A stretch of 64,000 bases of DNA, from sequence record NC_055709.1, one strand, 5' to 3'. The notes beneath the pieces are model-generated. The model saw only the letters and a list, made by a program, of their open reading frames with translations, had not been told where the DNA came from and searched no databases. The translations under genes and the position numbers were made by a program. The stretch's first letter is position 1; every line of letters begins with the position of its first letter. The stretch is from Escherichia phage phiE142. Of this stretch, positions 6,091 through 32,853 are shown piece after piece.

Positions 6091-6093
6091 ATT

Positions 6094-9028: not shown

Positions 9029-9035
9029 AATTTCC

Positions 9036-18950: not shown

Positions 18951-19529
18951 TTAATTACCACGGGCTGCATTAGCAACGGCGTAAGCATACTGAATATTAG
19001 CGTCTTTAAACGTACCTTTAGAGGTATCTATTTCCGCCTTAAAGCCGCCTTTAGCCATAACATCGGCAAATTCTTTACGGAAAGCCATTGCATCAAGACC
19101 TTTCCATGATGATTTATGCTTGGCAAATTCAAGACCAGCGTAGTTGACAGCTTTAGCCAATTTATTATCAATGACCCATTTACCTGCTTTAGGCACAAAC
19201 TTCGGGCCTTTTTGTTTAGAGAACAGTTTTAAATTCCAGCGACGAAGGTCACTGTCGGCTTTAACAAAAGCTGCGTCTAAGTTACTAGCAACGACATCTT
19301 CAATATGAGCAAATTTAAGTCCGTCAACTTCAATATTTAGATCGTTACGCCAGCGTAGTCCTTCCCAAGCGAAGGCTTTAAAATCAGAAGCTTTTGTGGC
19401 TAGATATCGTTCAAGTGGAGCAGTTTTAGGGTCAAAACCATTTCCGCCACGATAATTCCACTCGTCCTTATTAATGCCTTGGACTTTTCCTGCAAAGGCC
19501 TCGGCGATAAATTCTTTATATGTTTTCAT
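18951..19529 (-). CDS. capsid internal protein, IPIII-like (192 aa)
   Basis: N-terminal capsid targeting sequence MKTYKEFIAEA. Confidence 0.7.
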   Translation of the reverse strand: MKTYKEFIAEAFAGKVQGINKDEWNYRGGNGFDPKTAPLERYLATKASDFKAFAWEGLRWRNDLNIEVDGLKFAHIEDVVASNLDAAFVKADSDLRRWNLKLFSKQKGPKFVPKAGKWVIDNKLAKAVNYAGLEFAKHKSSWKGLDAMAFRKEFADVMAKGGFKAEIDTSKGTFKDANIQYAYAVANAARGN

Positions 19530-19592
19530 TTTTGTTTCCTTGTTTGTTTTGATAGAGTAATTATACCATATTAATACTTAAGCGTAAACAAT

Positions 19593-19853
19593 TTAAGCTT
19601 TACCGCCAGAAATAATTCCGAAGTTGTTAAAATCGTATCCAATATCGTCAGCATCTACTTTAGGACTTGCTACAACATAAGCAATTTCACGACGTTTTGC
19701 ATAGGTGTTTATTTCTTTACCGTTGCCACCTAAGAAAGAATACCCATTACGTTTTAATGAGCCAAAGTCTTCGGCATCACCAACGAAAGCTTTAACTTTA
19801 AATTTGGGGTCTTTGGCATCCGCTTCAGTGATAAATTCTTGATACATTTTCAT
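19593..19853 (-). CDS. capsid internal protein, IPII-like (86 aa)
   Basis: N-terminal MKMYQEFITEA capsid targeting sequence. Confidence 0.65.
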   Translation of the reverse strand: MKMYQEFITEADAKDPKFKVKAFVGDAEDFGSLKRNGYSFLGGNGKEINTYAKRREIAYVVASPKVDADDIGYDFNNFGIISGGKA

Positions 19854-19859
19854 TTTTCC

Positions 19860-20273
19860 TTAGTAAATTGATTTACCATAGTATTTGTACCAAGTGGGAC
19901 GTTGAGCAATTTTTTCATCTAAGCGTGCTTGACTTATCGCAATGGACGCTTCGGACGGGACATAATTATTACGAAATTCTACAGGAATGTCGGAAATATC
20001 CTGGACTGTCGTGTCCTTGATTTTGAAACCACGTTTCAAACATTCAGCTATTAGCTCGATTTGACGTAAACGTAAAAATTCGAGTTTGTCGTAAAAGAAT
20101 GTTACGTGGCCCGTGCCTAAAATAAATGTTGGAGAGATTTTAAAATCTTTTACACGTTTACCATTTTGAACATGTTTACGGACTGCACCGAATACACGAG
20201 GTAATTCACGATACTCAGCCATAAGATGTTGGTCGGTCAGTTCAGAAACAAGTGTTAAATTGATACGAGTCAT
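19860..20273 (-). CDS. denV: endonuclease V (pyrimidine-dimer DNA glycosylase)
   Basis: [12 protein letters not shown]...[16 protein letters not shown]...[11 protein letters not shown] matches T4 DenV; start at MTRINL. Confidence 0.9.
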
Positions 20274-20331
20274 AATTTCCTCCAAGTAGTTGATAGATGT
20301 ATAGTATCAAAACCCTTGGAGGAAGTAAACA

Positions 20332-20613
20332 CTATTTTTCTGAAGCGCCTGAAATATATTTTTCAAGACGTTGTTTCATTAACGAGCCGTTCTTAGCGAT
20401 TTCTTCCGGTTTATCGCACATACGCAGCAGTGCTTCAAGCTTAACGATATCACTGGTGCGCTCAAATTTGCGAGTATCTATCTTACTGGCAAGTTCAGAA
20501 ATACGTGCTAATAGACTTTCAGCTTCAACTAAAGCTGCACCTAGCTTAGTTGCAAATGTGTCAGTAGCTTCATTAAGAATAGATTCTGATAAAAATTCAT
20601 TATATGTTTTCAT
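20332..20613 (-). CDS. capsid internal protein-like (CTS-bearing)
   Basis: [12 protein letters not shown]-terminus; start overlaps the e stop (ATGA). Confidence 0.6.
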
Positions 20614-21098
20614 ATATACGCTTTCCAAGTTCCTGTTTTAAATGTTGAGATTACGCGTTTCGCGCGATTAGGCGTCTGACGATACCATTTAGATTGGGCT
20701 AGATTTACTGCCGCTTCATCCCAACGTTTCTGTTGAAGCATACGAAGAGAATTAGTAAAACCGGCGACGCCTGATACGCCCATTTGGAAGACCATATTGA
20801 CCAATGCACATCGACGAACCGCATCTAAAGAATCATATACCGGTTTAAGTTTAGCATTACCCAAGATTCCGCGAATGGCTTTATCGACGTCTTCATTAAA
20901 TAACTTTTCAGCCTCATCAAGGGTAATTGTACCGTTGCATTTACGACCGATCATCCTGTCAAGTTCAGCTTTAGCTACGGCTAAAGACGGGTTCTTTGTT
21001 ACTAAATGGCCTATGCCAATCGTCCAAAAGCCTTCGGTGTCTTTGTATAAAGTCAGTCTAAGACCTTCGTCATTACGAAGCATTTCAAATATATTCAT
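20610..21098 (-). CDS. e: endolysin (T4 lysozyme family)
   Basis: [28 protein letters not shown]; roughly three-quarters identical to T4L from memory. Confidence 0.95.
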
Positions 21099-21100
21099 AA

Positions 21101-21126
21101 TACCTCCTACGTTTATAGGAGGTATT
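21101..21126 (-). promoter_or_regulatory. RBS-sequestering inverted repeat upstream of e
   Basis: atacctccta-cgttta-taggaggtat perfect 10-bp inverted repeat containing the Shine-Dalgarno. Confidence 0.6.
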
Positions 21127-21132
21127 TATTAC

Positions 21133-21591
21133 TTATAGGATGGTAGTGAGCACCTTATATAATGATTTGCCCATTACATATTCCCATTGAGAAGGTTTAA
21201 TTAAAGCGAATGCATCAAATTCAGGAATCTGTCGTCCGTCTGGGAATGTATGATAGGAATTACAAACACTGTTTCTGAATTGCTCGTGCTCTACAGGGAT
21301 GGTATATTGGAATAGATGAATATTCTTATTGTCTGAGTAATGATGTTCGCCTAGGTCTTTCAGGAAGGCAGGGTCATATTGTGTAAACCCAGTTTCTTCT
21401 TCGCATTCACGAATAGCGGCTTCAATAGGAGATTCACCTGGCTCGACACGGCCTTTAGGAATATCCCACCGATGAGCTAATGCACCTTTAGGACGAGAAC
21501 CAGTTACACGGCCCATGAATAACTCTTTATCTTTTGTCATGAAGATAATACCGGCTGATAGTTCTTTCACTTTATTTTTCTTACTCATCAT
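21133..21591 (-). CDS. nudE: Nudix hydrolase
   Basis: Nudix box GRVEPGESPIEAAIRECEEETGF. Confidence 0.85.
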   Translation of the reverse strand: MMSKKNKVKELSAGIIFMTKDKELFMGRVTGSRPKGALAHRWDIPKGRVEPGESPIEAAIRECEEETGFTQYDPAFLKDLGEHHYSDNKNIHLFQYTIPVEHEQFRNSVCNSYHTFPDGRQIPEFDAFALIKPSQWEYVMGKSLYKVLTTIL

Positions 21592-21832
21592 CTCGGTCCC
21601 ATGATTTGGCCATTAATTCGGACATAAATTCTTCAATGCGCGTTTCTTTAGATGGACTTTCACTATTAGAAACCGCAAGTTTGTAATCTGCAATAGGACA
21701 GAACATATCAAGGTCCATATTAAGATCGTCTTTGATTTTTTCTTCTGACACATCTTTATCATATGTGTACAGATAACTATCACATGATTCTGATTTAATG
21801 TAAATTGCTATACTCATCTCAAATTCCTGCAT
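21581..21832 (-). CDS. hypothetical acidic protein (83 aa)
   Basis: ORF only. Confidence 0.4.
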   Translation of the reverse strand: MQEFEMSIAIYIKSESCDSYLYTYDKDVSEEKIKDDLNMDLDMFCPIADYKLAVSNSESPSKETRIEEFMSELMAKSWDRDDE

Positions 21833-22305
21833 TCGGTAATAAAACGTTCAACTTCATTATTCTTGGCCTTTATCTTGTCTTTACGTTCCTGTAAACTACT
21901 TTTAACAAGATTAATAATGATGCCTATAGTACCTCCACCAATAATACCACCAATAATACTTACGATAGTAGATGCTAATAATATAGCGATAATATCTGGT
22001 ATGGCAAAGGCACTTACTTTAGTACTAAAAAACCATACCGACGGTACAAATATAATCCATCCTGTTATCCATTGGCACTTATTGAAAAACTTTTCAAGCT
22101 CAGCTTGAGTTGTTCTTATTACTTCATCGATAGGTTGATATCCATTAATGTATCTGTTCACGATAATACCTGCTGGCTGGTCGATTTTAAATTCTTGGCA
22201 AATACGTTTCACTAAGTAGGATGGACATCCTGTCCAATCTACTGAGTAGTACGAAATACCTTCATTACCGTCGTCTATATTAGACCAATATGTTTTGTTA
22301 ATCAT
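21814..22305 (-). CDS. hypothetical membrane protein (163 aa)
   Basis: two TM helices incl. Gly-zipper IIGGIIGGGTIGII; C-terminal ERFITECR tail. Confidence 0.45.
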   Translation of the reverse strand: MINKTYWSNIDDGNEGISYYSVDWTGCPSYLVKRICQEFKIDQPAGIIVNRYINGYQPIDEVIRTTQAELEKFFNKCQWITGWIIFVPSVWFFSTKVSAFAIPDIIAILLASTIVSIIGGIIGGGTIGIIINLVKSSLQERKDKIKAKNNEVERFITECRNLR

Positions 22306-22991
22306 TACCAGCCTTCCATAGGGAATTCCAGATAAACTTGAGCATTGACACGAATTTCATTGGTAATCTTTTTAACTCGGTCTGTATTACGAGATACACG
22401 TCCGAACCAACGCCATCCATTACTAATTGCACGAGATCCAGTGTGCCATGTTTGCCAATCAAACTGAAGAAGAGTACGGTCTGGAGCTTCCCATTTCTCT
22501 AGTTCACCTTTTTCAATTTTTTCGAGGACTTCTTTGTGCCACTGGCGATAGATAAGTTCGCCATCAGGAATCTGACTGAACTCTGCAGTTCCTGTTGCAA
22601 AATGAGTAGGACACACGTCAGCGTTAACAAGGCCAAGAATATGTTCAGACAAATAGCGAGGATTGTCATAGTCAGGTTGTCCTGCAGTAATAAAATGTTG
22701 ACCAACTGGAATATCCGGGCGTGGTACATCGTCATGGTGATAACCTGGGATAGCAGGGTACCAACCAGGCATCAGCATGTGGACTCGTGAATCAAATACT
22801 ACATCCGAGCCTTTCCAATCGTCAGGGAGATTTTGGATAAAGCTACGAGTAATTGGACCGCCATTATTAAAAGCAAAATTCAAATCGCAGTTAAAGAACA
22901 TAGGCTCGTTTTTAATCTGGTCATTTTTAATCTCATGAGCAAAACCACCTACTGCACGAGCTTGACTATTAAACACTTTAGAACTATTCAT
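22305..22991 (-). CDS. hypothetical protein (228 aa)
   Basis: long ORF, His/Asp-rich segment PGYHHDDVP; no family assigned. Confidence 0.5.
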   Translation of the reverse strand: MNSSKVFNSQARAVGGFAHEIKNDQIKNEPMFFNCDLNFAFNNGGPITRSFIQNLPDDWKGSDVVFDSRVHMLMPGWYPAIPGYHHDDVPRPDIPVGQHFITAGQPDYDNPRYLSEHILGLVNADVCPTHFATGTAEFSQIPDGELIYRQWHKEVLEKIEKGELEKWEAPDRTLLQFDWQTWHTGSRAISNGWRWFGRVSRNTDRVKKITNEIRVNAQVYLEFPMEGW

Positions 22992-22992
22992 A

Positions 22993-23298
22993 TTATTTTC
23001 CTCGACATTCTTTAATGAAATTTTCTAGATTGGTAGATTCAATAGCTTTTTTACGAGCTTCTGCATGTTCTTCTTCAGACAATTTACATTTATAATTAAC
23101 CCAGACGTTATGGTCAAAACTAGTCGTGGCATATAATAACAAAGCCCCGACGAATAATAAAAATGGTGATAAGAATACAAAACCAGGAGCACCATCCATA
23201 TCGTAAGCCTTTTGTAATACTGCAACAGAAAGAGCTGCGTAAAAAGGTGATGCAAATATTGTAAAAAGACCAATTCGGTTGGTTTCGCCTAATTTCAT
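22993..23298 (-). CDS. hypothetical membrane protein (101 aa)
   Basis: two TM helices; C-terminal NFIKECR tail resembling 21814..22305. Confidence 0.45.
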   Translation of the reverse strand: MKLGETNRIGLFTIFASPFYAALSVAVLQKAYDMDGAPGFVFLSPFLLFVGALLLYATTSFDHNVWVNYKCKLSEEEHAEARKKAIESTNLENFIKECRGK

Positions 23299-23368
23299 AA
23301 TATTCTCCTCATGTTTTAATAGGACTACTATAACATAGTCCTATAATTGTGTAAACAGTTTTGCGAAA

Positions 23369-24325
23369 TTATTTGAAAGGTTTTACCATATGGAAATTTT
23401 GTTTGAAACGTTTGACGTAATCATCATGTCCTAAGCTTTTATACATACTTACTACTTTGCTGTAGTTTTCCCAGGCGTATTCACGAAACCAACCGGAGGT
23501 GATGCTTGTACAGACTTTTTCCAATGCCATCATAAAACTATCACGTGGATGGATTTTAAAGTCATTAGGAATCTGAGAACGTTCTAATGCTAGTACACAT
23601 GATTCTTCGTATACACCGGCCAATTTGACCATTTCTGGTAATGATTCGAACTTCTCGCGTGAGGTCATGACTTCAGAACCATCTTTCATATAAAATGTAT
23701 ACGCTGGACGGTCCGTTAGTGCAATGGCTTCGTGAATAGTATCATGATCGTATGTGTAGATATCATCTTTAAAGAATGCGCTTTTAGAAGTGTCAAGAAC
23801 TGGGTGAGCATAGTTCAAGGTTTCTTTCTGGCGTTTCAGCATAATTTCAGTAAGTTCATCGTTCAGTTTAACACCTTTACCACGAAGATACTGAATATGG
23901 TTCATAGTCTTTAAAAAGAATGGATTATTTTTCTTGAAACGATGAGACATCTTAATTGCAAGACACATCTCAGGAGTTGCCCAGTAAAACCCGTTCAAAC
24001 GGTCTTTAGTCAAATTTTTCTTGGCGTATTTTAAAAGGTCATAAGAAGACGTGAAATCTTCAGGAGTGAGTTCACCGACTAATTCACGGACATTAGTGAT
24101 TGCCGGAACAATATATGCTTCAAAATGAGTTTCGCGTCCATTATGGAAGCATTTGAAAACTTGGACATCAGGGTTATCTTGGTGAACATATACGCCCATC
24201 ATTTGATTTTTGAATGCATTCCAAGAACCTTGGTCCGCAATAAAGTCCCAATCACTGTTTTTGATAGCGCTAGAATCAATAAGGCCGTGATAGTGAAGTG
24301 CACGAGAACCAATAACTAACATCAT
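23369..24325 (-). CDS. hypothetical protein (318 aa)
   Basis: long ORF with early promoter upstream; weak GS...SDWD N-terminal motif. Confidence 0.5.
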   Translation of the reverse strand: MMLVIGSRALHYHGLIDSSAIKNSDWDFIADQGSWNAFKNQMMGVYVHQDNPDVQVFKCFHNGRETHFEAYIVPAITNVRELVGELTPEDFTSSYDLLKYAKKNLTKDRLNGFYWATPEMCLAIKMSHRFKKNNPFFLKTMNHIQYLRGKGVKLNDELTEIMLKRQKETLNYAHPVLDTSKSAFFKDDIYTYDHDTIHEAIALTDRPAYTFYMKDGSEVMTSREKFESLPEMVKLAGVYEESCVLALERSQIPNDFKIHPRDSFMMALEKVCTSITSGWFREYAWENYSKVVSMYKSLGHDDYVKRFKQNFHMVKPFK

Positions 24326-24353
24326 AATATTTTCCTCTGATTAATTCATTAAC

Positions 24354-24605
24354 TTAAATTTCACGACATGCGATATTATATTCATCCCAGAGGTCGTCAT
24401 GTGAAGCCTCTACCAATGGAACGATTGTACCGTTTATGTCTTCATTATAAGGACAAATTGTACAGTGCGCATCTTCGAATCGTATGCCTTTGTGTTCAGA
24501 TTTTTTATAACGCATATCGAATATCTTTGCAAACTTTTCACGAGTAATAGTTTTAGCAACTACTTCGGTTCCGATACTTTCGTAATAAATCATTGTAGAC
24601 TCCAT
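24354..24605 (-). CDS. hypothetical protein (83 aa)
   Basis: ORF with early promoter at 24611-24651. Confidence 0.4.
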   Translation of the reverse strand: MESTMIYYESIGTEVVAKTITREKFAKIFDMRYKKSEHKGIRFEDAHCTICPYNEDINGTIVPLVEASHDDLWDEYNIACREI

Positions 24606-24655
24606 TTAATTTGATAGGACTACTATAACATAGCCCTATCTTGTTGTAAACTGTT

Positions 24656-24853
24656 TTAGCAAGAATAACTAGACGATACCCAGCCTTGAACAGTAATACT
24701 ATTATTTGATAACGAGATTGCGTCCTGGAGATTAAGACCTGCGTTATCTTCAATCCACAATGTAACTTCTTCACGCTCTTCGGTTGCAATCTGGAACAGG
24801 TTTTCTAGAGCAGCTACTGCGGTACGTACAGCACAATCTAATTCACGAGACAT
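24656..24853 (-). CDS. small paralog A with C-terminal GWVSSSYSC tail (65 aa)
   Basis: shares terminal G-W-V-[SA]-S-S-x-x-C with the next two ORFs. Confidence 0.5.
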   Translation of the reverse strand: MSRELDCAVRTAVAALENLFQIATEEREEVTLWIEDNAGLNLQDAISLSNNSITVQGWVSSSYSC

Positions 24854-24862
24854 ATGGTTTCC

Positions 24863-25135
24863 TTAGCAAGTGTGAGAAGATGCAACCCAACCGCCATCTT
24901 CAAGGCTCAAGTTGTAGTCGTATTGGTAAACATCGGCCCATTCAGCATAACCGTTTTTTGTACAACGTTCAAGATCGGCTTTAAGATGTCCGGGTGAATG
25001 ATAGGTTCCACCCATACCATAAGCTGGATACAAGTCGAATGTTGTGTTTTGTTTATTAGCAATTTCTTTGGCAGCCTCAATAGCTGCATAGATTTTTGCT
25101 ACGGCTTCAGCCAGTTCGGTTTGTTCTTTAGACAT
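24863..25135 (-). CDS. small paralog B with C-terminal GWVASSHTC tail (90 aa)
   Basis: tandem paralog; AAGGAA RBS coupling. Confidence 0.5.
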   Translation of the reverse strand: MSKEQTELAEAVAKIYAAIEAAKEIANKQNTTFDLYPAYGMGGTYHSPGHLKADLERCTKNGYAEWADVYQYDYNLSLEDGGWVASSHTC

Positions 25136-25144
25136 AATGATTCC

Positions 25145-25450
25145 TTAGCACAATGCAGAAGACGAAACCCAAGCACCTTCAGTAATAACATAACCATTAC
25201 CTTCACGCTTAACATCACCACCATTATTTTCAATTTCATCTTTCATCCACTGGGATACAATTTCACCCTTAGGATAATAAGTACGACCGCTACCATAATC
25301 ACCTACAGAAAACGATACGGCGTATTGGTCTGCGATCTTTGTTGCTTCTTCTTCGATACGTTCAGCTTGATTCAGAAGTTTATAAATTGCATCTGAAGCG
25401 GATTTGGCATCATTAAACTCTGGTACTTTAATTTCAATAATCTTACTCAT
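25145..25450 (-). CDS. small paralog C with C-terminal AWVSSSALC tail (101 aa)
   Basis: tandem paralog; shares MSK start and YG(S/M)G(R/G)TY core with paralog B. Confidence 0.5.
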   Translation of the reverse strand: MSKIIEIKVPEFNDAKSASDAIYKLLNQAERIEEEATKIADQYAVSFSVGDYGSGRTYYPKGEIVSQWMKDEIENNGGDVKREGNGYVITEGAWVSSSALC

Positions 25451-25548
25451 TTTCTACATTCCTTAATAAAGTTTTCGATTGTTTCATTTTCACGTCTAGC
25501 TAGGAGTTCATTATAACTAATCATTTGAGAAGCGTAAACAGCATAAAT

Positions 25549-25941: not shown

Positions 25942-26506
25942 ATTCTCTACATTCCATAATAAATTGCTCAAGGATTAAATTGTTAGTGAAATTAGGACTA
26001 ACAACCATAGTTTCATAAAGCGCATCAATAGCACTTAAAGCATCAACTCTTTTAAGCAAAGGCTTGCCTTCATACATAGTTTCAGAATCGACGATTAACG
26101 TAAAGTAATATTTTTTATTATCGACTAGAACTTCTGTATCGATATAAAACATATTAGACCTCAGAAGCTTATCTCTAAAACCATAATAATCTTCAGAGCG
26201 TTCGCTGATATATTCCAATTCAGTGTTTAAACAACAAACAGACCATGTAGGAGCAACGAAATCAGTGAATCTAATATCATGATCTGCAACTAGTTTAGCA
26301 ATAGCTCCGATATCATGAATCATAATACCTGGGGCTAATAAAGATTTTCGGTTATTTGCATATTCAGTTGTCTCATAAGAAGACGACCAATACCATTTAC
26401 GTCCAGTTGCAACATATCGTAATGAATCAACTAAAGACGTAGGTGGATTTACCTTATCTCGGAACTCTTCGAACATTGAGTCAATATCATTATTTTGGTT
26501 TCGCAT
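25910..26506 (-). CDS. hypothetical protein (198 aa)
   Basis: start at the ATG preceded by AAGGAG. Confidence 0.5.
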   Translation of the reverse strand: MRNQNNDIDSMFEEFRDKVNPPTSLVDSLRYVATGRKWYWSSSYETTEYANNRKSLLAPGIMIHDIGAIAKLVADHDIRFTDFVAPTWSVCCLNTELEYISERSEDYYGFRDKLLRSNMFYIDTEVLVDNKKYYFTLIVDSETMYEGKPLLKRVDALSAIDALYETMVVSPNFTNNLILEQFIMECREYVKANPIHAN

Positions 26507-26555
26507 GTTAACTCCTTTATTATCCAAAAGGAGGACCGGAGTCCTCCGTATTATT

Positions 26556-27149
26556 TTATTTCAAAGAGTTAATATATTCTTGTACATCAGCAGAAGTGGT
26601 TTCAACACCGGCTGGAGTGCCATTGAATGTTTCAACACGAGTCAGAGTGTCTTCGATATCAACCTTAGTCAGTGCAGCAATTTCGATTACATCATCAGCC
26701 GTAGAGATACCAAGGGCATTGGCTGCTCGAGTTTCGCGGATGTATTCAAGTTTGATTGCCAGATTCTGACGAGCATCATCAAGTTCAACCACCTTACGAG
26801 CAATTTCAATTCGCATGGCGGCATACCCGTCAGCTTTTGTATTAAGTTGTTCGGCGGTTCGACGATACAGAAGACCAAGCTTAGCATGCATGGTAACATC
26901 TTGTCCTTCAGCCAGGAGCTTACGAATTTCACGTTCCTTAGAAGCGGCTTGCTTGTTCTTTTCATTAACAAGTTCGCGAATACGTTTTTCTTCATTAATA
27001 GATTTAATAGAAGCAGTTTTTAGTTCTTTGATTTGGGTAATCAACTTATCTGCAGCTGCGTTATACTGTTCTTCGACAGTCAGATTTTTAGCCATAGCAG
27101 TACCCAGTTTAGTGCGGATGAATTCAACAAGTTTCTTCAGTGTGTTCAT
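26556..27149 (-). CDS. hypothetical coiled-coil protein (197 aa)
   Basis: start at ATG (MNTLKKL); largely alpha-helical heptad-rich sequence. Confidence 0.5.
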
Positions 27150-27220
27150 ATTATTACCTTTCAATTGGTGGTTTTATTATCCAACGAGAGCATTATACTC
27201 TGCTCTCAAGAGTTTGTAAA

Positions 27221-27448
27221 TTATTTTTTAATCAAATTGACATAAAACTTGGCGTCTTCTGGGTGCATGCCTTCGCAGTATTCTTCAACCATGAACTTCT
27301 TAACAGCTTCATAAGGACCACTCAGATTAAGCTCAGTTGTCCAGAACTTGGAATCTTGGACTGAATCGATACGAACTTCAGGGTGACGGTTGCGAATAAC
27401 TTCTTCGGTGTATTCATAATCAACGACATCAATACTAACTGTAGCCAT
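27221..27448 (-). CDS. hypothetical acidic protein (75 aa)
   Basis: ORF only. Confidence 0.4.
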   Translation of the reverse strand: MATVSIDVVDYEYTEEVIRNRHPEVRIDSVQDSKFWTTELNLSGPYEAVKKFMVEEYCEGMHPEDAKFYVNLIKK

Positions 27449-27506
27449 TTTGTTTCTCCTCTTGATTTGATAGGTCTATAGTAACACCGTCCATGGTGTT
27501 TGTACA

Positions 27507-28037
27507 TCATTTATTTTTAATTTTGCAAATTTTTCCAGCTTCGATACATGCAGCATAGATGATGCTCTGGGCAATTTTATTGCTAGTAGACCTTGCAATC
27601 ACACTAAGAACAATTTCTTTTTCTTCACCACCACAACCCCAGGACCTTTGCTCATGAGTACCTTTAACTACGGCTGAAACTTCAACAGAACGTCCGCCAT
27701 CAGAAGTTTTAACATCTACAACCCAATCGCCATCTTTCTCTTCAACCTGTGGTTTATCCCAAGAAATACTAATATATGATTCACTGTCAATAGAAGTCGC
27801 CGGGTTTTTCTTTACTGTAAGACCTTCACTTTCCAGCCATTCAATAGTATTTGCGCATAAATCAGAAGAACACCTCATCGGAAACTGGCAAGATTTTTCA
27901 CCTTTAGCTGCAGCGTTATACATCTTTTCTAAAATACGCTTTTGCACGTTTTTAAAAATAGTTTCAGCAGATTCTTCAGATTTTTTATTCAGTTCAGTAT
28001 AAAGACTCATAACATTCTTCTCATTAATAGGGCTCAT
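27507..28037 (-). CDS. hypothetical protein (176 aa)
   Basis: ORF only. Confidence 0.45.
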   Translation of the reverse strand: MSPINEKNVMSLYTELNKKSEESAETIFKNVQKRILEKMYNAAAKGEKSCQFPMRCSSDLCANTIEWLESEGLTVKKNPATSIDSESYISISWDKPQVEEKDGDWVVDVKTSDGGRSVEVSAVVKGTHEQRSWGCGGEEKEIVLSVIARSTSNKIAQSIIYAACIEAGKICKIKNK

Positions 28038-28067
28038 AATATCTCAATCATAAGCCCATGTACGCAT

Positions 28068-28343
28068 TTATTTCATATTATCGAAATATTCTTCAGCGAT
28101 TTCGACATTATCATGGTAAACTTTAGAAGACAGTTTAACATAACCTTCTGCTGCGAACATATTAATCACAACCTTTACAGTATACCATTGTCCGTCTTCA
28201 TTACCCATTACTGCGTAAGTTTCAAACATCGGATGGTTAGGTCCAATAACTTTAATATCATTCACCGTACGTCCGAAATCTTCTGGAACGCATTTCATAA
28301 AGAAATTGAACAGTTCACCGTAATTATCCATTTCATTCTCCAA
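28068..28343 (-). CDS. hypothetical protein (91 aa)
   Basis: ORF with early promoter GTTTAC-N17-TACTAT upstream. Confidence 0.45.
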   Translation of the reverse strand: MENEMDNYGELFNFFMKCVPEDFGRTVNDIKVIGPNHPMFETYAVMGNEDGQWYTVKVVINMFAAEGYVKLSSKVYHDNVEIAEEYFDNMK

Positions 28344-28539
28344 GGTTTTTCTGTATCAGTGGTTGATAGTTGTATAGTACCACGGAAGAACAGGGATGTA
28401 AACAGTTTTGTGAAAAAAAATTTAAAAAGTTTTTTTGGGGAATTCTAGAGCAGGGAGGGGAAATCAAAGGATAGAATAATATATTATAAAGGGCAGAAAC
28501 TAAATGATGCCTAGAGAGGCCTGGAAAGGCCTAGATACC

Positions 28540-28566
28540 AAAAAGCCCTATCTAAATGATAGGGAT
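28540..28566 (-). terminator. intrinsic terminator
   Basis: ccctatc-taaat-gataggg hairpin followed by U-run on the minus strand. Confidence 0.55.
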
Positions 28567-28572
28567 TTAAAA

Positions 28573-29136
28573 TTATTTACCTAGTTTAGTTATTATAGCT
28601 TCGGCAGCAGCTTTTAGCTTAGATGCAGTGTTAATACGATTTTTAATTTCAGTATACGCATCGCCAAGAACATCAAGGCTATCAGAATAAACACTTACAC
28701 TATTGCGTTCGCTATTTGAAATAGAACCTTTAGTTTTACGATCAAAATCAGTGTACACGTCTTGAAGATCACGGGCCGCCTTCTTTGCATCATCCAATGC
28801 ATCAAGAGCTTTATTCAAAGCATTGACATATTTTTTAGTGTCAAACATATTCTTAGAAATTTTAACGGGTGCACGTTCAGGAGTAGCTAAGGCGGATTTA
28901 GGAACCTGCGTGCCAGATGCCAGTTTCTTAGAAATTTTGAAAAACGCTTTATTGAAACTATTTTCTTGACTCATCGTAAAAGAACTAGTATCGATGTTAT
29001 ACATTTCAATAGCTTTAGCTTTCCACTTAAGAAAATCGCCACGGTCTTTTGGATCCAAGTTGAAGAATACTTTAGTAAGATCTGCTTCAGATGGTAATTT
29101 TGCTGCTTCGGTTAAAAATTCGGCGTAGGTTTTCAT
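28573..29136 (-). CDS. capsid internal protein-like (CTS-bearing, 187 aa)
   Basis: MKTYAEFLTEA N-terminus. Confidence 0.6.
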   Translation of the reverse strand: MKTYAEFLTEAAKLPSEADLTKVFFNLDPKDRGDFLKWKAKAIEMYNIDTSSFTMSQENSFNKAFFKISKKLASGTQVPKSALATPERAPVKISKNMFDTKKYVNALNKALDALDDAKKAARDLQDVYTDFDRKTKGSISNSERNSVSVYSDSLDVLGDAYTEIKNRINTASKLKAAAEAIITKLGK

Positions 29137-29225
29137 TTAAAATCCTTGAAATAATTTATCGGTTGGTTATTAATTATTTATTACTTTGGTATTATCAGTA
29201 ACAGCATTCTCTGAGAGATTCAAAC

Positions 29226-29254
29226 TAAAAAGCCCCAACCTTTTGGCTAGGGCT
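29226..29254 (-). terminator. intrinsic terminator
   Basis: agcccctagcc...ggttggggct hairpin plus U-run on the minus strand. Confidence 0.5.
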
Positions 29255-29261
29255 AAGAATG

Positions 29262-29726
29262 TTATTTGATTTGTTTAGCAGACCAAATGCGGTCTTTAAT
29301 AAGTTTTTGGATATCTTCAACATACTCAAGGCTATGAGCGTGAGGATTATCTTTGAAGCTATGTGCTCGTGCCAGTTTCTGGCCTTCAGTTTTGATTACC
29401 AAAAGTTCTTTAAGAATTGCTTCATACTTAGAAATAATTCCTTTGGCGATATTTTTTTCTTGAGCTGCTTTAGGGCCCGCTTTTGGTGCTGGTGCTTTAC
29501 CTGTAGCTTTCTGGAACAATTCACCTGATGCAGCTAGGCTTTTAAAAACTCGGCTAACAGTATTAGCATTAGTAAAACCTTCGGCTTTAAAATCTCTAAT
29601 AAAACGGAAACGTTCTTCATCAGAGGCGTCTTTGTAAGAATATTTACCTGCTTGAATTGCTGCAATCGCAGCGGCTTTTACATCTGAACTAGATTGTTCA
29701 GTCAAAAATTCTGCATATGATTTCAT
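29262..29726 (-). CDS. capsid internal protein-like (CTS-bearing, 154 aa)
   Basis: MKSYAEFLTEQ N-terminus. Confidence 0.6.
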   Translation of the reverse strand: MKSYAEFLTEQSSSDVKAAAIAAIQAGKYSYKDASDEERFRFIRDFKAEGFTNANTVSRVFKSLAASGELFQKATGKAPAPKAGPKAAQEKNIAKGIISKYEAILKELLVIKTEGQKLARAHSFKDNPHAHSLEYVEDIQKLIKDRIWSAKQIK

Positions 29727-29773
29727 GTTACTTTTCCTAAGTTAATTAACTTATCTATTTATTATTATTATGC

Positions 29774-29802
29774 AAAAAAGCCCCAACCTTTCGGAAGGGG
29801 CT
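29774..29802 (-). terminator. intrinsic terminator downstream of the tRNA cluster
   Basis: gcccc-aacctttcggaa-ggggc hairpin plus U5 on the minus strand. Confidence 0.55.
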
Positions 29803-29853
29803 AAGCCTTGCGGCAGCCTTGTCGGGGTTCCACCTGCTAAGGCAAGTGTTTGT

Positions 29854-29944
29854 ACGAAACGCCGGGATTCGAACCCGGTTATTAAGCAGTTGACGCTACT
29901 CAATATTTTTAAAGGCCATATCTCGACCATATCCGAACGTTCCG
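29854..29944 (-). tRNA. tRNA-like element (about 91 nt, anticodon not resolved)
   Basis: canonical T-arm CCGGGTTCGAATCCCGG and 7-bp acceptor pairing CGGAACG/CGTTTCG; no encoded CCA; remaining arms do not fold cleanly by eye. Confidence 0.4.
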
Positions 29945-30114
29945 TCAAAAACGCTACTCGGCTTACGGCAAAGATATTTCCTCGAATCGATAATTCTGTG
30001 CGCCGTTTCTGCTGTGATGTAAGGGGATATTAACGAATCATAAAGATTTATTAAGACCAGTCCTTACTCAGGGAACATCAGTCCGACGACTTGCCGGTAG
30101 CGACCCGGCTTCTC

Positions 30115-30459
30115 TTATTTTGGCATATCATCAATTTGCTCTCTACGCCGACGCCATAGATTAATCGCTTCATAGGCACATTCTGCGTTTGGTATATGAC
30201 GGCAATAATATAATGATTCACGTTTCTGAAACCGATGTTGCAATGGGATTTCGTTTAAAAGGTCTTTGCGATCAAAGTATTCAAAACTAGTTAACCCGGA
30301 ACGGTTTTTAATGAACTTCCAATGACCGAATTCATTTTGAACATAGATGTAATCGGCATGCTGATAAAGTGAATTAATCAATCGATGAGAAATAACTGTA
30401 TCATATTCATTAAAATAAAACGTTAAATCATGAACTACTAAGTAAACATTACCTTTCAT
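30115..30459 (-). CDS. hypothetical protein embedded in the tRNA cluster
   Basis: ORF between tRNA-Arg and the tRNA-like element; start trimmed to internal Met to avoid overlapping tRNA-Arg. Confidence 0.4.
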   Translation of the reverse strand: MKGNVYLVVHDLTFYFNEYDTVISHRLINSLYQHADYIYVQNEFGHWKFIKNRSGLTSFEYFDRKDLLNEIPLQHRFQKRESLYYCRHIPNAECAYEAINLWRRRREQIDDMPK

Positions 30460-30477
30460 ATTTTCCTCACTTATAAT

Positions 30478-30554
<77 letters not shown>

Positions 30555-30560
30555 AATATA

Positions 30561-30634
30561 TGACCCAGACCAGATTCGAACTGGTAACCTTTCCCTTATG
30601 AGGGGACTGCTGCTAACCGTTGAGCTACAGGGCC
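30561..30634 (-). tRNA. tRNA with CAU anticodon (Ile2 or Met)
   Basis: T-arm ACCAG-TTCGAAT-CTGGT, anticodon loop CUCAUAA; acceptor has one U-U mismatch and the D-arm is irregular. Confidence 0.6.
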
Positions 30635-30713
30635 TAAATAACTTTCTATTATGAAAGGCACTTTAGAGCACCTTTGGTAATAGAGGGTATGAATTAATAA
30701 TAACACATAATTC

Positions 30714-31229
30714 TTAAAGCAAATCAATCATTTTAACAGTCGGCAAAATGATTTCTTCTTCAATATAAGCAAATTCAACACATTCAACTACACGCAAGAA
30801 ATCATAATCATAATATTCAGAAGCATGGCCAAGAATATCAATGAGACCTTCTGATACTAAATATCCATTCTCACGGAACAGGTCAAATACACGTGATTCG
30901 TCTTCTTCAGATTTATTACCAAGGTCGACTTCAATATCAAAGACCTTTTTAATGAATTCTGGATAAAGCTGGTCTGAGAACAGTCCTTCAACCAGATATT
31001 CGTAGATAATAAGCGAGCAATCACTGAATGGTGTATTACCGCAATAACGTTCGGCTTTGGTGCTAGAATGACGACTCTTAAATTTCTTCAAAAGATATTT
31101 AAACTGTTGGAGCTCATGCTCTTCCACTTCAAACAATGTTTTGGTTTTATAGTTGTCACCATCGTTTTCATAGGTAGTGACATCAATTACGTAACCTTTA
31201 GGTATTGTACTGCCTAAACAAATATTCAT
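30714..31229 (-). CDS. hypothetical acidic protein (171 aa)
   Basis: ORF only. Confidence 0.5.
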   Translation of the reverse strand: MNICLGSTIPKGYVIDVTTYENDGDNYKTKTLFEVEEHELQQFKYLLKKFKSRHSSTKAERYCGNTPFSDCSLIIYEYLVEGLFSDQLYPEFIKKVFDIEVDLGNKSEEDESRVFDLFRENGYLVSEGLIDILGHASEYYDYDFLRVVECVEFAYIEEEIILPTVKMIDLL

Positions 31230-31233
31230 TTAC

Positions 31234-31524
31234 TCACCGTACCATATTAATGTAATTATATTCAATGCAACGTAATTTCAAAGGATTCTTGAAAATATCA
31301 TATTCAAGAGGGCCTTTTTCTGTTTCAATAAAGAAATCAAAGTTAACTGTGTTAAATTTATAATCTTCACAGAGTAATTTAACTTGCGAAGACGAACGGT
31401 CGATATAAACCTTTTCAACCTCAAAGTTAGTCAGAATACCGTAGTCATCAACTAGTGCTTTAGCTGCACGTTGATCGCTTTCGTATCCGTTCTCAATAGA
31501 TGACACTTTAGCATAAAGAATCAT
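31234..31524 (-). CDS. hypothetical protein (96 aa)
   Basis: ORF only. Confidence 0.45.
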   Translation of the reverse strand: MILYAKVSSIENGYESDQRAAKALVDDYGILTNFEVEKVYIDRSSSQVKLLCEDYKFNTVNFDFFIETEKGPLEYDIFKNPLKLRCIEYNYINMVR

Positions 31525-31883
31525 GAATGTTCCACCACTTCAAAGCTATGGGCATCAACAATATGATACCAGTCAAAATTTTCTTCTGCGTTTTTATAAA
31601 TTTCGCGAAGAGCCTCAACGGTTTTTCCTGTAGCAACAAGGTCGTCAATACCACCAAGAGGATAACAGTCGTAACCAGCAAACAGAAGGAAATTAATAGT
31701 TTCTGTAGGTTCTGGATGCAGAACACCGTTATCATCTACCACTTCAAAGAAAGTGTAAGAAGGAGTACAAGTTTTAATCCAAGCCCATGCTTGAGCTGCC
31801 GAATCAAATGGTCTACGTATCAAACGACAATCAGGGTCTTTAGAAGGATTTGCTTCAAAATCTGCATATACATGATATTTCAT
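31521..31883 (-). CDS. hypothetical protein (120 aa)
   Basis: ORF; 4-nt overlap with the next gene. Confidence 0.45.
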   Translation of the reverse strand: MKYHVYADFEANPSKDPDCRLIRRPFDSAAQAWAWIKTCTPSYTFFEVVDDNGVLHPEPTETINFLLFAGYDCYPLGGIDDLVATGKTVEALREIYKNAEENFDWYHIVDAHSFEVVEHS

Positions 31884-32090
31884 TTACTCACCTTTTGCAA
31901 TTTTATCCATAACAATAGCGATTAAACCGATTAGAAATGCTACTACCAATGAGATAGAATTTTCGGTTGTTGTCAGTAGTCCGCAAATGAATCCTACAAA
32001 CATCGAAAAACTAAAAGCCATTGAAGCAATTACTACAGCAACATTACGAATCAGTTCAGCGCGTTTCATTTTATTTCTCCATTTACTCAT
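31884..32090 (-). CDS. hypothetical small membrane protein (68 aa)
   Basis: two hydrophobic helices. Confidence 0.4.
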   Translation of the reverse strand: MSKWRNKMKRAELIRNVAVVIASMAFSFSMFVGFICGLLTTTENSISLVVAFLIGLIAIVMDKIAKGE

Positions 32091-32139
32091 TTTGTTTTGA
32101 TAGGACTACTATAACATAGTCCTATAGGCTTGTATACCT

Positions 32140-32403
32140 TTATTTCAAATATATTGCGTATTTTTTATAGCCACCAGGCTCATGTCGAAGACCTTTATCA
32201 TTCGCAAAACGTTGAATGTTATTGAACTGATTTTCGTCAAGTTCGGATGTGTTAAATATGAAAAAGTTTCGTTTGTTACCAAGCGTGATATGCGGAGTTA
32301 AGTCAATGTTATACAAATTAAGAATATCAGCAATAACCTGATTGACCGCTTTGTTAATTTTCACACCAGACGATTCTGAGATGAATTCGTTGAAAGTTTT
32401 CAT
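32140..32403 (-). CDS. capsid internal protein-like (CTS-bearing)
   Basis: MKTFNEFISES N-terminus taken from the internal Met. Confidence 0.55.
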   Translation of the reverse strand: MKTFNEFISESSGVKINKAVNQVIADILNLYNIDLTPHITLGNKRNFFIFNTSELDENQFNNIQRFANDKGLRHEPGGYKKYAIYLK

Positions 32404-32464
32404 TTTAGGTTCCATTTTGTTGTTTTGTTAGGACTACTATAACATAGTCCTACCAAGATGTAAA

Positions 32465-32776
32465 CTATTTTATGCCTTTAGATGAAATAGTGTTCTGGCG
32501 TTTAACCCCAGTTTGTGAAAAATCATGGTTATCAATTTGGTCAACTCGCATAACACCAAACGCAGATTTAATTTTGGCCTTTGAACCTTTTTTGATACTA
32601 ATTACCATATAAGTGTCATTTTTCTTATATTCGTAATTTGATACTTCAACGCCTTGATTAGAAATTGACTTAATAATAGCATTAGCGTATTCATCATCTA
32701 ATGGGCCGTTAGTGTTAATAACAAAATTTTTATCCGCTTTAGTAGCTTCAGCGATGAATTCTTTATAGGTTTTCAT
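32465..32776 (-). CDS. capsid internal protein-like (CTS-bearing, 103 aa)
   Basis: MKTYKEFIAEA N-terminus. Confidence 0.6.
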   Translation of the reverse strand: MKTYKEFIAEATKADKNFVINTNGPLDDEYANAIIKSISNQGVEVSNYEYKKNDTYMVISIKKGSKAKIKSAFGVMRVDQIDNHDFSQTGVKRQNTISSKGIK

Positions 32777-32853
32777 TTTATTTCCTTGAGGCTGTTTATT
32801 TGATAGGATGATAGTAACACACCATCATCTTTATGTAAACTGTTTTGTGAAAA

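What the first reader, a model, noticed from the sequence alone, without database searches (positions are those of the whole stretch)
18951..32776. Seven proteins carry the capsid-targeting N-terminus (MKTY-x-EF-x-x-E)
ORFs at 18951, 19593, 20332, 28573, 29262, 32140 and 32465 all begin with the T4 internal-protein capsid targeting sequence, which is cleaved by the prohead protease. T4 has three classical internal proteins (one, IPI*, blocks a type IV restriction system) plus Alt. Seven diverse cargo domains behind the same delivery tag suggests an expanded set of injected effectors, plausibly anti-defence.
Basis: partly seen in the sequence, partly recalled or inferred. Interest (0 to 1): 0.55.

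Follow-up and report, generated by a model that had tools for sequence, protein, structure and literature searches.

The report
Seven T4-type injected internal proteins
This RB69-like phage encodes seven small proteins that start with the well-known T4 "capsid targeting" leader, which loads them into the phage head so they are injected with the DNA; this class of anti-restriction cargo is real but already described, and only two of the seven belong to a family that no record or paper checked labels as such.

Summary
Exactly seven ORFs in the 64 kb window, all on the minus strand, begin with M-K-[T/S/M]-[Y/F]-x-E-F-[I/L]-x-E. About 0.0003 matches are expected by chance. The window is a Mosigvirus (98.7% to phiC120, 96% to RB69).

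The leader matches the T4 capsid targeting sequence, including the residues that mutagenesis showed matter for targeting (4, 7) and for gp21 cleavage (8, 10). Identity drops from 70% in residues 1-10 to 8% afterwards.

- One protein is the ortholog of T4 IPIII/Ip3 (92% identical). Ip3 is an experimentally shown inhibitor of a GmrSD type IV restriction enzyme.
- Four fall in PHROG families annotated "internal head protein".
- Two (28573-29136 and 29262-29726, PHROG 2280) lie in a third locus between e.8 and rnaC. They are "hypothetical" in every record sampled.

RB69 and phiC120 also carry seven such genes each, in different combinations. Breakpoints between genomes fall at the end of the leader and at promoter/stem-loop repeats.

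Diverse internal proteins sharing only this leader have been known since 1994. The anti-defence reading is current literature (Ip1-3 against GmrSD variants; a Bas37 Ip against McrBC). The finding is therefore a correct rediscovery of low novelty. Packaging and targets of six of the seven remain untested.

The parts
18951..19529 (-). w1: ortholog of T4 internal protein III (Ip3). 192 aa, leader MKTYKEFIAE|A, predicted mature form 20.3 kDa with pI 9.6.
   Evidence: 91.7% identical to T4 IPIII over 192 aa. PHROG 5341 'internal virion protein', E 3e-117. Found in 259 phage records, including Klebsiella phages. A single I-x-E site lies at residues 8-10.
19593..19853 (-). w2: 86-aa internal-protein candidate, leader MKMYQEFITE|A. 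Ortholog of RB69ORF125c. Starts 6 nt after the denV stop.
   Evidence: 92% identical to RB69ORF125c. PHROG 2667 'internal head protein', E 1.5e-21. Found in 218 phage records, some annotated as internal head protein.
20332..20613 (-). w3: 93-aa internal-protein candidate, leader [10 protein letters not shown]|S. Its ATG overlaps the stop codon of lysozyme gene e (ATGA).
   Evidence: PHROG 3499 'internal head protein', E 1e-46. 92% identical to RB69ORF127c and 48% to PST IpV / Bas37_0261, which lie at the ipI locus in those phages. Found in 495 records.
28573..29136 (-). w4: 187-aa CTS-bearing protein, leader MKTYAEFLTE|A, mature pI 9.5. It lies in a third locus between e.8 and rnaC. Not annotated as an internal protein in any record sampled.
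   Evidence: PHROG 2280 'unknown function', E 4e-53. Found in 163 phage records at 85-99.5% identity; all 40 listed are 'hypothetical' or carry no annotation. Equals RB69ORF149c+148c, which are split in RB69. Absent from T4 and PST. The AF2 model is all-helical and of low confidence, pLDDT 54.
29262..29726 (-). w5: 154-aa CTS-bearing protein, leader MKSYAEFLTE|Q, mature pI 9.7. Distant paralog of w4 in the same e.8-rnaC locus. Not annotated as an internal protein in any record sampled.
   Evidence: PHROG 2280, E 3e-53. Collinear alignment with w4 at 26% identity. Found in 510 phage records; the 15 listed are 'hypothetical' or carry no annotation. It is an insertion relative to RB69. Distant relatives keep an M-x-x-[FY]-x-EF-[LV]-x-E N-terminus.
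32140..32403 (-). w6: 87-aa internal-protein candidate at the ipI locus, leader MKTFNEFISE|S. It occupies the position of ipI in RB69 and phiC120.
   Evidence: PHROG 7673 'internal head protein', E 2e-48. Relatives are annotated as internal head protein or ip7. Homology with RB69 stops at 32137, just past the stop codon, and resumes at 32377, inside the leader.
32465..32776 (-). w7: 103-aa internal-protein candidate at the ipI locus next to 57B, leader MKTYKEFIAE|A.
   Evidence: 97% identical to RB69ORF156c. PHROG 2667, E 2e-38. Relatives are named Ip7 or internal head protein. The AF2 core (residues 15-82) has pLDDT about 90 with a beta-alpha-beta-beta-alpha-beta topology and a disordered basic tail. 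Foldseek finds only generic ACT/ferredoxin-like matches.
19560..19588 (-). T4-early-type promoter-like site (TTTACG-N17-TATAAT) upstream of w1.
   Evidence: It fits the T-even PeSL promoter consensus TTTACW-N17-TAYWAT reported in PMC4122927. This is a consensus match only; no expression data.
32436..32464 (-). Promoter-plus-stem-loop (PeSL-like) element upstream of w6. It contains the 24-nt hairpin TAGGACTATGTTATAGTAGTCCTA at 32429-32452.
   Evidence: The same 24-mer recurs at 32101-32124, just downstream of w6, and at 23320-23343. blastn shows this intergenic repeat at several RB69 and phiC120 intergenic sites.
32101..32124 (-). Second copy of the 24-nt PeSL-like hairpin, immediately downstream of w6. 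With the upstream copy it brackets the w6 cassette.
32811..32839 (-). T4-early-type promoter-like site (TTTACA-N17-TACTAT) upstream of w7.
29227..29254 (-). Terminator-like hairpin (AGCCC..GGTTGGGGCTTTTT) between w5 and w4. It repeats the hairpin at 29774-29802 at the end of the rnaC homolog. Each copy is followed by AATAAATA (29174-29182 and 29755-29763), one mismatch from the T4 late promoter TATAAATA.
   Evidence: The repeats coincide with the boundaries of the w5 insertion relative to RB69.

Best explanation
The seven genes are the internal-protein (Ip) repertoire of an RB69-like T-even phage (Mosigvirus).

Proposed mechanism:
1. The ~10-residue N-terminal capsid targeting sequence binds each protein to the gp22/gp21/gp67/gp68 scaffolding core while the prohead forms.
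2. The prohead protease gp21 cuts after Glu10 of the I/L-x-E motif. This frees the mature, mostly basic 8-20 kDa protein inside the head.
3. The protein is then ejected with the DNA into the next host.
4. There it acts before any phage gene is expressed, most likely as a stoichiometric inhibitor of one variant of a modification-dependent (type IV) restriction enzyme.

How firmly each step is supported:
- w1 is the Ip3 ortholog and is expected to block Ip3's target, the GmrSD variant of E. coli ECOR17.
- The leader-to-core-to-cleavage-to-injection pathway has been shown experimentally for T4 IPs only.
- That the seven proteins here follow this pathway is inferred from the conserved leader and from homology.
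- An anti-defence role is shown for the IPIII family and is inferred for the other six.

The repertoire evolves by cassette exchange. The leader-coding 30 nt and the flanking promoter/stem-loop repeats mark the junctions at which cargoes are swapped between phages.
For: Identity of the phage:
- The window is 98.7% identical to phiC120 and 96% to RB69.
- It shows T4 synteny: vs.8, denV, e, nudE, e.2-e.8, rnaC/D, tRNAs, 57B, 57A and gene 1.

The leader:
- There are seven matches against 0.0003 expected by chance.
- All seven have Y/F at 4, F at 7, I/L at 8 and E at 10. These are the positions that mutagenesis identified for targeting (4, 7) and processing (8, 10) (PMC9026906).
- Residues 1-10 are 70% identical against 8% afterwards, with 36 pairwise synonymous codon differences within the leader. 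The conservation therefore acts on the peptide.

Homology:
- w1 is 92% identical to T4 IPIII.
- w2, w3, w6 and w7 fall in PHROGs annotated as internal head protein.
- w3 is 48% identical to PST IpV.

Physical properties and machinery:
- Five of the seven predicted mature forms have pI 9.3-9.7, like T4 IPII and IPIII.
- RB69 encodes gp67, gp68, gp21 and gp22.

Function, from the literature:
- Ip3 is needed on ECOR17 and works without its CTS when expressed in the host (PMC9391042).
- Ip1, Ip2 and Ip3 each inhibit one GmrSD variant (PMC12373910).
- Bas37_0260, a CTS-bearing protein at the ipI locus, inhibits McrBC (preprint 10.1101/2025.11.20.689424).
- Mosigvirus DNA is arabinosylated and is cut by the GmrSD-family enzyme BrxU (PMC13390438).

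Cassette exchange:
- Homology with RB69 resumes at 19501 (w1 starts at 19529) and at 32377 (w6 starts at 32403).
- Homology with phiC120 resumes at 32754 (w7 starts at 32776).
- The break on the 3' side falls right after the stop codon.
- PeSL-like repeats bracket w6 (PMC4122927).
- RB69, phiC120 and this phage each have seven leaders but different sets.

The w4/w5 family:
- Relatives below 50% identity still begin M-x-x-[FY]-x-EF-[LV]-x-E.
Against: - There is no virion proteomics, N-terminal sequencing or genetics for this phage or for six of the seven families. Packaging and cleavage are inferred.
- The prohead protease and scaffold genes are not in the window, which ends in gene 12. Their presence is inferred from RB69.
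- No canonical late promoter TATAAATA lies within 120 nt upstream of any of the seven. Expression timing is therefore not established from the sequence.
- w2 and w3 have near-neutral mature pI (8.2 and 6.3), unlike classical basic IPs.
- w3 has additional L-x-E sites at residues 13, 28 and 38, so its mature N-terminus is uncertain.
- Cargo folds gave no functional clue: no Pfam hit, no PDB sequence relative, and only generic fold matches for w7.
- Ip3's known target recognises glucosyl-hmC DNA. This phage probably has arabinosylated DNA, so the relevant enzyme variants may differ.
Confidence: 0.85

Rival explanations
1. The proteins are packaged through the leader, but their main role is structural or physical rather than anti-defence. 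As abundant basic proteins they would neutralise DNA charge, aid prohead core assembly or affect packaging and ejection. Cargo diversity would then reflect weak constraint, not an arms race.
For: - Five of the seven mature forms are basic, with pI 9.3-9.7.
- T4 packages about 1000 IP molecules per head, and lysines of the IPs contact DNA phosphates (PMC3012670).
- T4 IPIII mutants assemble heads at about half the rate, give a burst about 40% of normal and accumulate more polyheads (PMC9026906).
- w4 is predicted to be largely helical or disordered, with a Pro/Lys-rich linker.
Against: - All three T4 IPs now have specific restriction-enzyme targets, with no cross-protection between them (PMC12373910).
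- Ip3 rescues infection when expressed in the host without its leader.
- Presence or absence of whole cassettes between near-identical phages is the pattern of accessory counter-defence genes.
- w2 and w3 are not basic.
- The two roles are not mutually exclusive.
Confidence: 0.2
2. The two unannotated proteins (w4 and w5, PHROG 2280) carry the leader only as an evolutionary remnant or by recombination with neighbouring ip genes. They are not packaged and act inside the infected cell.
For: - They lie outside the two classical ip loci (PMC12373910).
- None of the 40 and 15 listed GenBank records for w4 and w5 calls them internal proteins.
- PHROG 2280 is 'unknown function'.
- RB69 tolerates a split w4 gene, ORF149c/148c.
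Against: - The leader is retained, with the I/L-x-E cleavage motif, in every full-length family member. This includes representatives below 50% identity: MLKFNEFLAE, MLEYSEFLKE, MKFKEFLIE and MISFNEFVDGNLITE.
- Leader codons differ synonymously from those of the other ip genes.
- Both are basic like IPII and IPIII.
- The family is confined to T4-like phages, with 13 representatives among 1.84 billion proteins.
Confidence: 0.15
3. The shared N-terminus is a translation-initiation or RBS-proximal nucleotide signal (or chance), not a protein targeting signal.
For: - The leader codons are A/T-rich, all seven begin ATGAAA, and five are preceded by a purine-rich AGGAA or AAGGA stretch.
Against: - Conservation extends through codon 10. 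Five of the ten leader residues are invariant, while codons 3, 4, 7, 8 and 10 vary synonymously.
- The conserved positions coincide with those mapped by mutagenesis for targeting and cleavage.
- The chance expectation is 0.0003, and no other ORF in the window has the motif.
- The other ORFs of the window share the same genomic context and lack it.
Confidence: 0.02

Closest known systems
T4 internal protein III (IPIII / Ip3)
   Same: w1 is 91.7% identical over its full length. It has an almost identical leader (MKTYKEFIAE against MKTYQEFIAE), the same size and the same pI. It belongs to the same PHROG, 5341.
   Different: Gene order differs. In T4 the order is denV-ipII-ipIII-e. Here it is vs.8-ipIII-w2-denV-w3-e. 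The phage probably has arabinosylated rather than glucosylated cytosines, so the restriction-enzyme variant it meets may differ.
T4 IPI* and IPII (Ip1, Ip2), inhibitors of GmrSD variants
   Same: They share the same delivery principle: a CTS leader, a gp21 site and a small mature protein. w6 and w7 lie at the same locus as ipI, between tRNA.4 and 57B.
   Different: No cargo homolog of IPI (PHROG 4363) or IPII (PHROG 7857) is present in the window. IPI has a 19-residue propeptide, whereas all seven here have the 10-residue form. The predicted w7 fold did not retrieve IPI*.
Ip genes of other T-even phages: Repoila et al. 1994 'at least 10' Ips; PST IpIV-IpVI; Bas37_0260, an McrBC inhibitor
   Same: w3 is 48% identical to PST IpV / Bas37_0261. 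w6 and w7 relatives are annotated Ip7 or internal head protein. All share only the leader with one another.
   Different: PST IpIV and IpVI / Bas37_0260 have no cargo homolog here. w4 and w5 are absent from PST and T4 and were not named as Ips in any record or paper I could check.
PeSL (promoter-early stem-loop) mobile regulatory cassettes of T4-type phages (Arbiol 2010; Comeau 2014)
   Same: TTTACW-N17-TAYWAT promoter-like sites with an embedded hairpin flank w6 and w7. The element is repeated elsewhere in the region, and indel boundaries coincide with it.
   Different: At the 5' side of the cargoes the junction lies inside the coding leader, not only in the PeSL. w4 and w5 are instead flanked by a terminator-like hairpin plus AATAAATA.
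Phage P1 Dar (defence against restriction) head proteins
   Same: They work alike: proteins packed in the head and injected with the DNA to block restriction (papers listed; I did not read them).
   Different: The phage lineage is unrelated and there is no CTS leader. These are large proteins with a different incorporation pathway. No sequence relation was tested or expected.

Membership tests
T4-type internal proteins (CTS-delivered head cargo) | N-terminal capsid targeting sequence with the residues needed for targeting (aromatic at position 4, Phe at 7) | tested here: met
   All seven have Y or F at position 4 and F at 7. M1, K2 and E6 are invariant. The requirement is taken from mutagenesis summarised in PMC9026906.
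T4-type internal proteins (CTS-delivered head cargo) | gp21 prohead-protease cleavage motif (I/L-x-E) at the end of the leader, with Glu rather than Asp at position 10 | tested here: met
   IAE, ITE, LSE, LTE, LTE, ISE and IAE at residues 8-10. Actual cleavage was not observed.
T4-type internal proteins (CTS-delivered head cargo) | Encoded by a phage with the T4 prohead core (gp21 protease, gp22 scaffold, gp67, gp68) | tested here: inconclusive
   These genes lie outside the window, which ends in gene 12. RB69, 96% identical over the region, encodes all four.
T4-type internal proteins (CTS-delivered head cargo) | Similarity between members confined to the leader, with unrelated cargoes | tested here: met
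   Residues 1-10 are 70% identical against 8% for residues 11-70. BLAST alignments between families cover only about 11 residues. Exceptions are the two paralog pairs, w2/w7 and w4/w5.
T4-type internal proteins (CTS-delivered head cargo) | Located in the known ip loci (vs.8-denV-e region; tRNA.4-57B region) | tested here: met
   Met for w1, w2, w3, w6 and w7. Not met for w4 and w5, which sit between e.8 and rnaC.
T4-type internal proteins (CTS-delivered head cargo) | Physically present in mature virions in processed form and ejected into the host | not testable with these tools
   This needs virion mass spectrometry or N-terminal sequencing. No proteomic study covering these families was found in the held literature.
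IPIII / Ip3 family (inhibitor of GmrSD-ECOR17) | Full-length sequence homology to T4 IPIII | tested here: met
   w1 is 91.7% identical over 192 aa. PHROG 5341, E 3e-117, covering positions 1-192 of 192.
IPIII / Ip3 family (inhibitor of GmrSD-ECOR17) | Inhibits its cognate type IV restriction enzyme | not testable with these tools
   Shown for T4 Ip3 only (PMC9391042; PMC12373910).
IPI* family (GmrSD-CT596 inhibitor) | Sequence or fold similarity of the cargo to IPI* | tested here: not met
   None of the seven hits PHROG 4363, the family of T4 and RB69 IPI. There is no BLAST similarity beyond the leader. No PDB sequence hit was found for w1, w3, w6, w7 or the w4/w5 profile. Foldseek with the w7 model returned no IPI* entry among its top matches.

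The most novel reading that the evidence does not exclude
The e.8-rnaC interval is a third, so far unrecognised internal-protein locus of T-even phages. Its two products (w4 and w5, PHROG 2280, 'hypothetical' in every listed GenBank record of the 163 and 510 with matches) would be packaged via the leader and injected. They would neutralise a first-line defence different from the GmrSD and McrBC targets known for other Ips. One candidate target is an enzyme that recognises the arabinosylated cytosines of Mosigvirus DNA.
Probability: 0.3. Interest if true: 0.45.

Novelty: already known. Interest (0 to 1): 0.22.

Why it matters
Internal proteins are the only phage counter-defences present in the cell at the moment the DNA enters. 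They therefore help set the host range of T-even phages, which are widely used in therapy and biocontrol.

The class, its leader and its anti-restriction role are established, so this finding adds no new principle. Its practical value has three parts:
- It gives a clean inventory of the seven leader-bearing genes of one Mosigvirus. Only one of them (Ip3) has a known target.
- It identifies a widespread family (PHROG 2280, in hundreds of sequenced phages) that fits the sequence criteria for an Ip but sits at a new locus and is called hypothetical in all records sampled.
- It shows that cargo swaps between close relatives break at the end of the leader.

These proteins are ready-made candidates for screens against type IV restriction enzymes.

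Tried and rejected
- **Pfam scan of all seven.** No significant family. There was only a sub-threshold cytochrome b562-like hit on the C-terminal helices of w4.
- **PDB sequence searches** for w1, w3, w6, w7 and the w4/w5 profile. Nothing below E 0.1.
- **AlphaFold2 of w4** with a 12-sequence alignment. pLDDT was 54, too low for a fold search, so none was run.
- **AlphaFold2 of w7.** The core was good, but Foldseek against the PDB gave only generic ACT/ferredoxin-like matches (E at least 1.8e-3, TM about 0.45) and no IPI*. I do not infer function from this.
- **Canonical T4 late promoter TATAAATA** within 120 nt upstream of each gene. None was found. Only one-mismatch AATAAATA sites precede w4 and w5, and early-type promoter-like sites precede w1, w6 and w7.
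- **Profile comparison of the w4 and w5 families** without the leader. There is only a weak 25-residue C-terminal match, so their relationship rests on PHROG 2280 and a collinear 26% alignment.
- **Bas37_0260 (McrBC inhibitor) or PST IpIV/IpVI homologs** in the window. None is present.
- **Virion proteomics** covering these families. The fPS-65/fPS-90 paper has none, and a wider literature search found none.
- **Repoila et al. 1994** is not held in the library. Its content is cited only through papers that quote it.
- **Petrov 2010** does not discuss IPs.

Full report
**What the window is.** Region 18.9-33 kb is 98.7% identical to Escherichia phage phiC120 and about 96% to RB69, both genus Mosigvirus. 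The gene order is that of T4. On the minus strand it reads vs.6-vs.8, an ip cluster with denV and lysozyme e, nudE, e.2-e.8, homologs of rnaC/rnaD, two tRNAs, tRNA.2-4, a second ip cluster, 57B, 57A and gene 1. Tail and baseplate genes follow on the plus strand, as far as gene 12.

**The observation.** A six-frame scan for M[KR][TSMA][YFW]x[ED]F[ILVM]x[ED] finds exactly seven matches in 64 kb.
- Residue frequencies predict 0.0003 matches, and 200 shuffles gave none.
- The mechanical ORF list extends two of the ORFs upstream. The leader-bearing ATGs are at 20613 and 32403.
- The leaders are [60 protein letters not shown] and MKTYKEFIAE.
- Pairwise identity is 70% over residues 1-10 and 8% over residues 11-70.
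- Codons 3, 4, 7, 8 and 10 differ synonymously between genes, giving 36 pairwise synonymous differences. The peptide is what is conserved, not an RBS-proximal nucleotide signal.

**Match to the T4 capsid targeting sequence.** T4 IPII and IPIII begin MKTYQEFIAE, and IPI begins MKTFKEF. A review of the Black laboratory's work reports three points (PMC9026906):
- The first 10 residues of IPIII suffice for packaging.
- Residues 4 and 7 matter most for targeting, and residues 8 and 10 for processing.
- Asp at position 10 blocks cleavage.

All seven proteins here have Y/F4, F7, I/L8 and E10, which gives a predicted gp21 cut after residue 10. Predicted mature masses are 8-20 kDa. Five of the seven are basic (pI 9.3-9.7), like IPII and IPIII; w2 (8.2) and w3 (6.3) are not. 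The protease and scaffold genes lie beyond the window, but RB69 encodes gp67, gp68, gp21 and gp22.

**What each protein is.**
- w1 (18951-19529) is the IPIII ortholog: 91.7% identity, PHROG 5341.
- w2 (19593-19853) and w7 (32465-32776) are distant paralogs in PHROG 2667, 'internal head protein'. They are orthologs of RB69ORF125c and RB69ORF156c.
- w3 (20332-20613) is in PHROG 3499. It is the ortholog of RB69ORF127c and is 48% identical to PST IpV and Bas37_0261.
- w6 (32140-32403) is in PHROG 7673, whose relatives are annotated ip7 or internal head protein.
- w4 (28573-29136) and w5 (29262-29726) both match PHROG 2280, 'unknown function', end to end. They align collinearly at 26% identity: leader, a helical N-terminal part, a Pro/Lys-rich linker and a C-terminal helical part.

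There are therefore five cargo families, not seven. No homolog of IPI or IPII is present. None of the seven has a Pfam domain or a sequence relative in the PDB.

**The w4/w5 family.**
- Relative to T4, both genes are inserted between e.8 and rnaC. Relative to RB69, w5 is an extra insertion. PST lacks both.
- w4 occurs in 163 phage records and w5 in 510. These span Tequatrovirus and Mosigvirus. Every listed record annotates them as 'hypothetical' or 'phage protein', or carries no annotation.
- In a library of 1.84 billion representative proteins the family has only 13 members.
- Its distant full-length members still begin MLKFNEFLAE, MLEYSEFLKE, MKFKEFLIE or MISFNEFVDGNLITE. Closer members show [11 protein letters not shown] and MKSYAQFLNEAVLNE.
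- Retention of the aromatic-x-EF-L-x-E leader across this divergence is the best available evidence that these are true internal proteins.
- Silas et al. speak of 'two Ip loci'. The e.8-rnaC interval would be a third.

**Cargo structure.** The w4 model is of low confidence (pLDDT 54) and all-helical, so I did not search folds with it. The w7 model has a confident beta-alpha-beta-beta-alpha-beta core (pLDDT about 90), a helical leader and a disordered basic tail. Foldseek returns only generic ACT/ferredoxin-like matches and not IPI*. Neither model gives a functional clue, which is not surprising: Silas et al. report that Ip1, Ip2 and Ip3 share nothing beyond the leader.

**How the repertoire evolves.** RB69, phiC120 and this phage each carry seven leader-bearing genes, but not the same seven. 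T4 carries three.
- At the vs.8 side, RB69 has ORF123c and ORF124c where this phage has ipIII. Homology with RB69 is lost at 18871 and resumes at 19501, 28 nt inside the w1 coding sequence.
- At the ipI locus, RB69 has ipI where this phage has w6. Homology stops at 32137, three bases past the w6 stop codon, and resumes at 32377, 26 nt inside the leader.
- phiC120 lacks the w6 and w7 cargoes and has a single ipI-type gene at this locus. Homology stops at 32137 and resumes at 32754, inside the w7 leader.
- A 24-nt hairpin embedded in a TTTACA-N17-TATAGT promoter-like site lies on both sides of w6 and again at 23320-23343.
- w4 and w5 are each preceded by a repeated terminator-like hairpin plus AATAAATA.
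- These elements match the PeSL regulatory cassettes that Arbiol and Comeau proposed as mediators of modular shuffling in T4-type phages. The T-even consensus is TTTACW-N17-TAYWAT.
- The leader-coding segment itself appears to be the other recombination junction.

**Function.** What is established comes from the literature:
- IPI* inhibits GmrSD of strain CT596.
- T4 lacking ipIII cannot infect ECOR17, and leaderless IPIII expressed in the host restores infection.
- Ip2 and Ip3 inhibit the GmrSD variants of ECOR21 and ECOR17 respectively, with no cross-protection. The authors propose that the other proteins of the Ip loci target further GmrSD variants.
- A 2025 preprint shows that Bas37_0260, a leader-bearing protein at the ipI locus, inhibits McrBC. 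That protein equals PST IpVI and has no homolog here.
- Mosigvirus DNA carries mono- and di-arabinosylated cytosines and is cleaved by the GmrSD-family enzyme BrxU. Type IV restriction is therefore a relevant threat for this phage too.

By homology, w1 should inhibit an ECOR17-type GmrSD. For the other six, anti-defence activity is an inference from class membership.

- Repoila et al. 1994 had already found about ten Ips by their leader (cited).
- Seven is the normal number for a Mosigvirus.

I therefore rate the finding as already known and of low interest. One modest residue remains: PHROG 2280 at the e.8-rnaC locus looks like an unannotated Ip family.

**What remains unproven:** packaging, cleavage and targets for six of the seven proteins, and the timing of expression. 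No canonical late promoter was found within 120 nt upstream of any of the genes.

Noticed in passing
window 24656-24853, 24863-25135, 25145-25450 (minus strand): Three tandem small ORFs (65, 90 and 101 aa) all end in the same C-terminal motif, G-W-V-(A/S)-S-S-x-x-C. The two larger ones match the C-terminal part of PHROG 899 and the smallest matches PHROG 4882, both of unknown function.
   Followed up: partly
window 29775-30114 (minus strand): This stretch is 92% identical to T4 rnaC/rnaD, the stable species 1 and 2 RNAs. ARAGORN calls a 94-nt 'tRNA-Stop (anticodon tta)' at 29852-29945 inside it, while Rfam has no family matching it. Only two real tRNAs are present in the window (Arg-TCT at 30478-30554, Met-CAT at 30561-30634), against eight in T4.
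   Followed up: partly
L001 (RB69 AY303349) 8815-9096 versus window 20332-20613: RB69ORF127c is 92% identical to w3, but residues 5-12 read MNFYQNLS instead of NEFLSESI. This looks like a -1/+1 frameshift pair within the leader (inferred from the two protein sequences, not aligned at DNA level). Either RB69 has lost the targeting sequence of this protein or the 2003 sequence has errors. RB69ORF149c/148c is likewise a split version of w4.
   Followed up: partly
window 23320-23343, 32101-32124, 32429-32452 (minus strand): An identical 24-nt hairpin, TAGGACTATGTTATAGTAGTCCTA, occurs three times in intergenic positions. Two of the copies bracket w6. It looks like a PeSL-type promoter/stem-loop mobile regulatory element.
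   Followed up: partly
window 22305-22991 and 23369-24325 (minus strand): Two larger conserved ORFs (228 and 318 aa; PHROG 1843 and PHROG 2141, both of unknown function) lie between e.2 and the small-ORF cluster. They correspond to RB69ORF132c and RB69ORF134c, and T4 annotates nothing equivalent at this position between e.2 and e.3.
   Followed up: no
L004 (Bas37 / KarlGJung MZ501089) 5902-7064: Bas37, the phage used in the HIDEN-SEQ essentiality screen, carries homologs of both w5 (bas37_0244, 75% identical) and w4 (bas37_0243, 97% identical). Published or forthcoming fitness data for those two genes on different hosts could test the third-locus idea directly.
   Followed up: no
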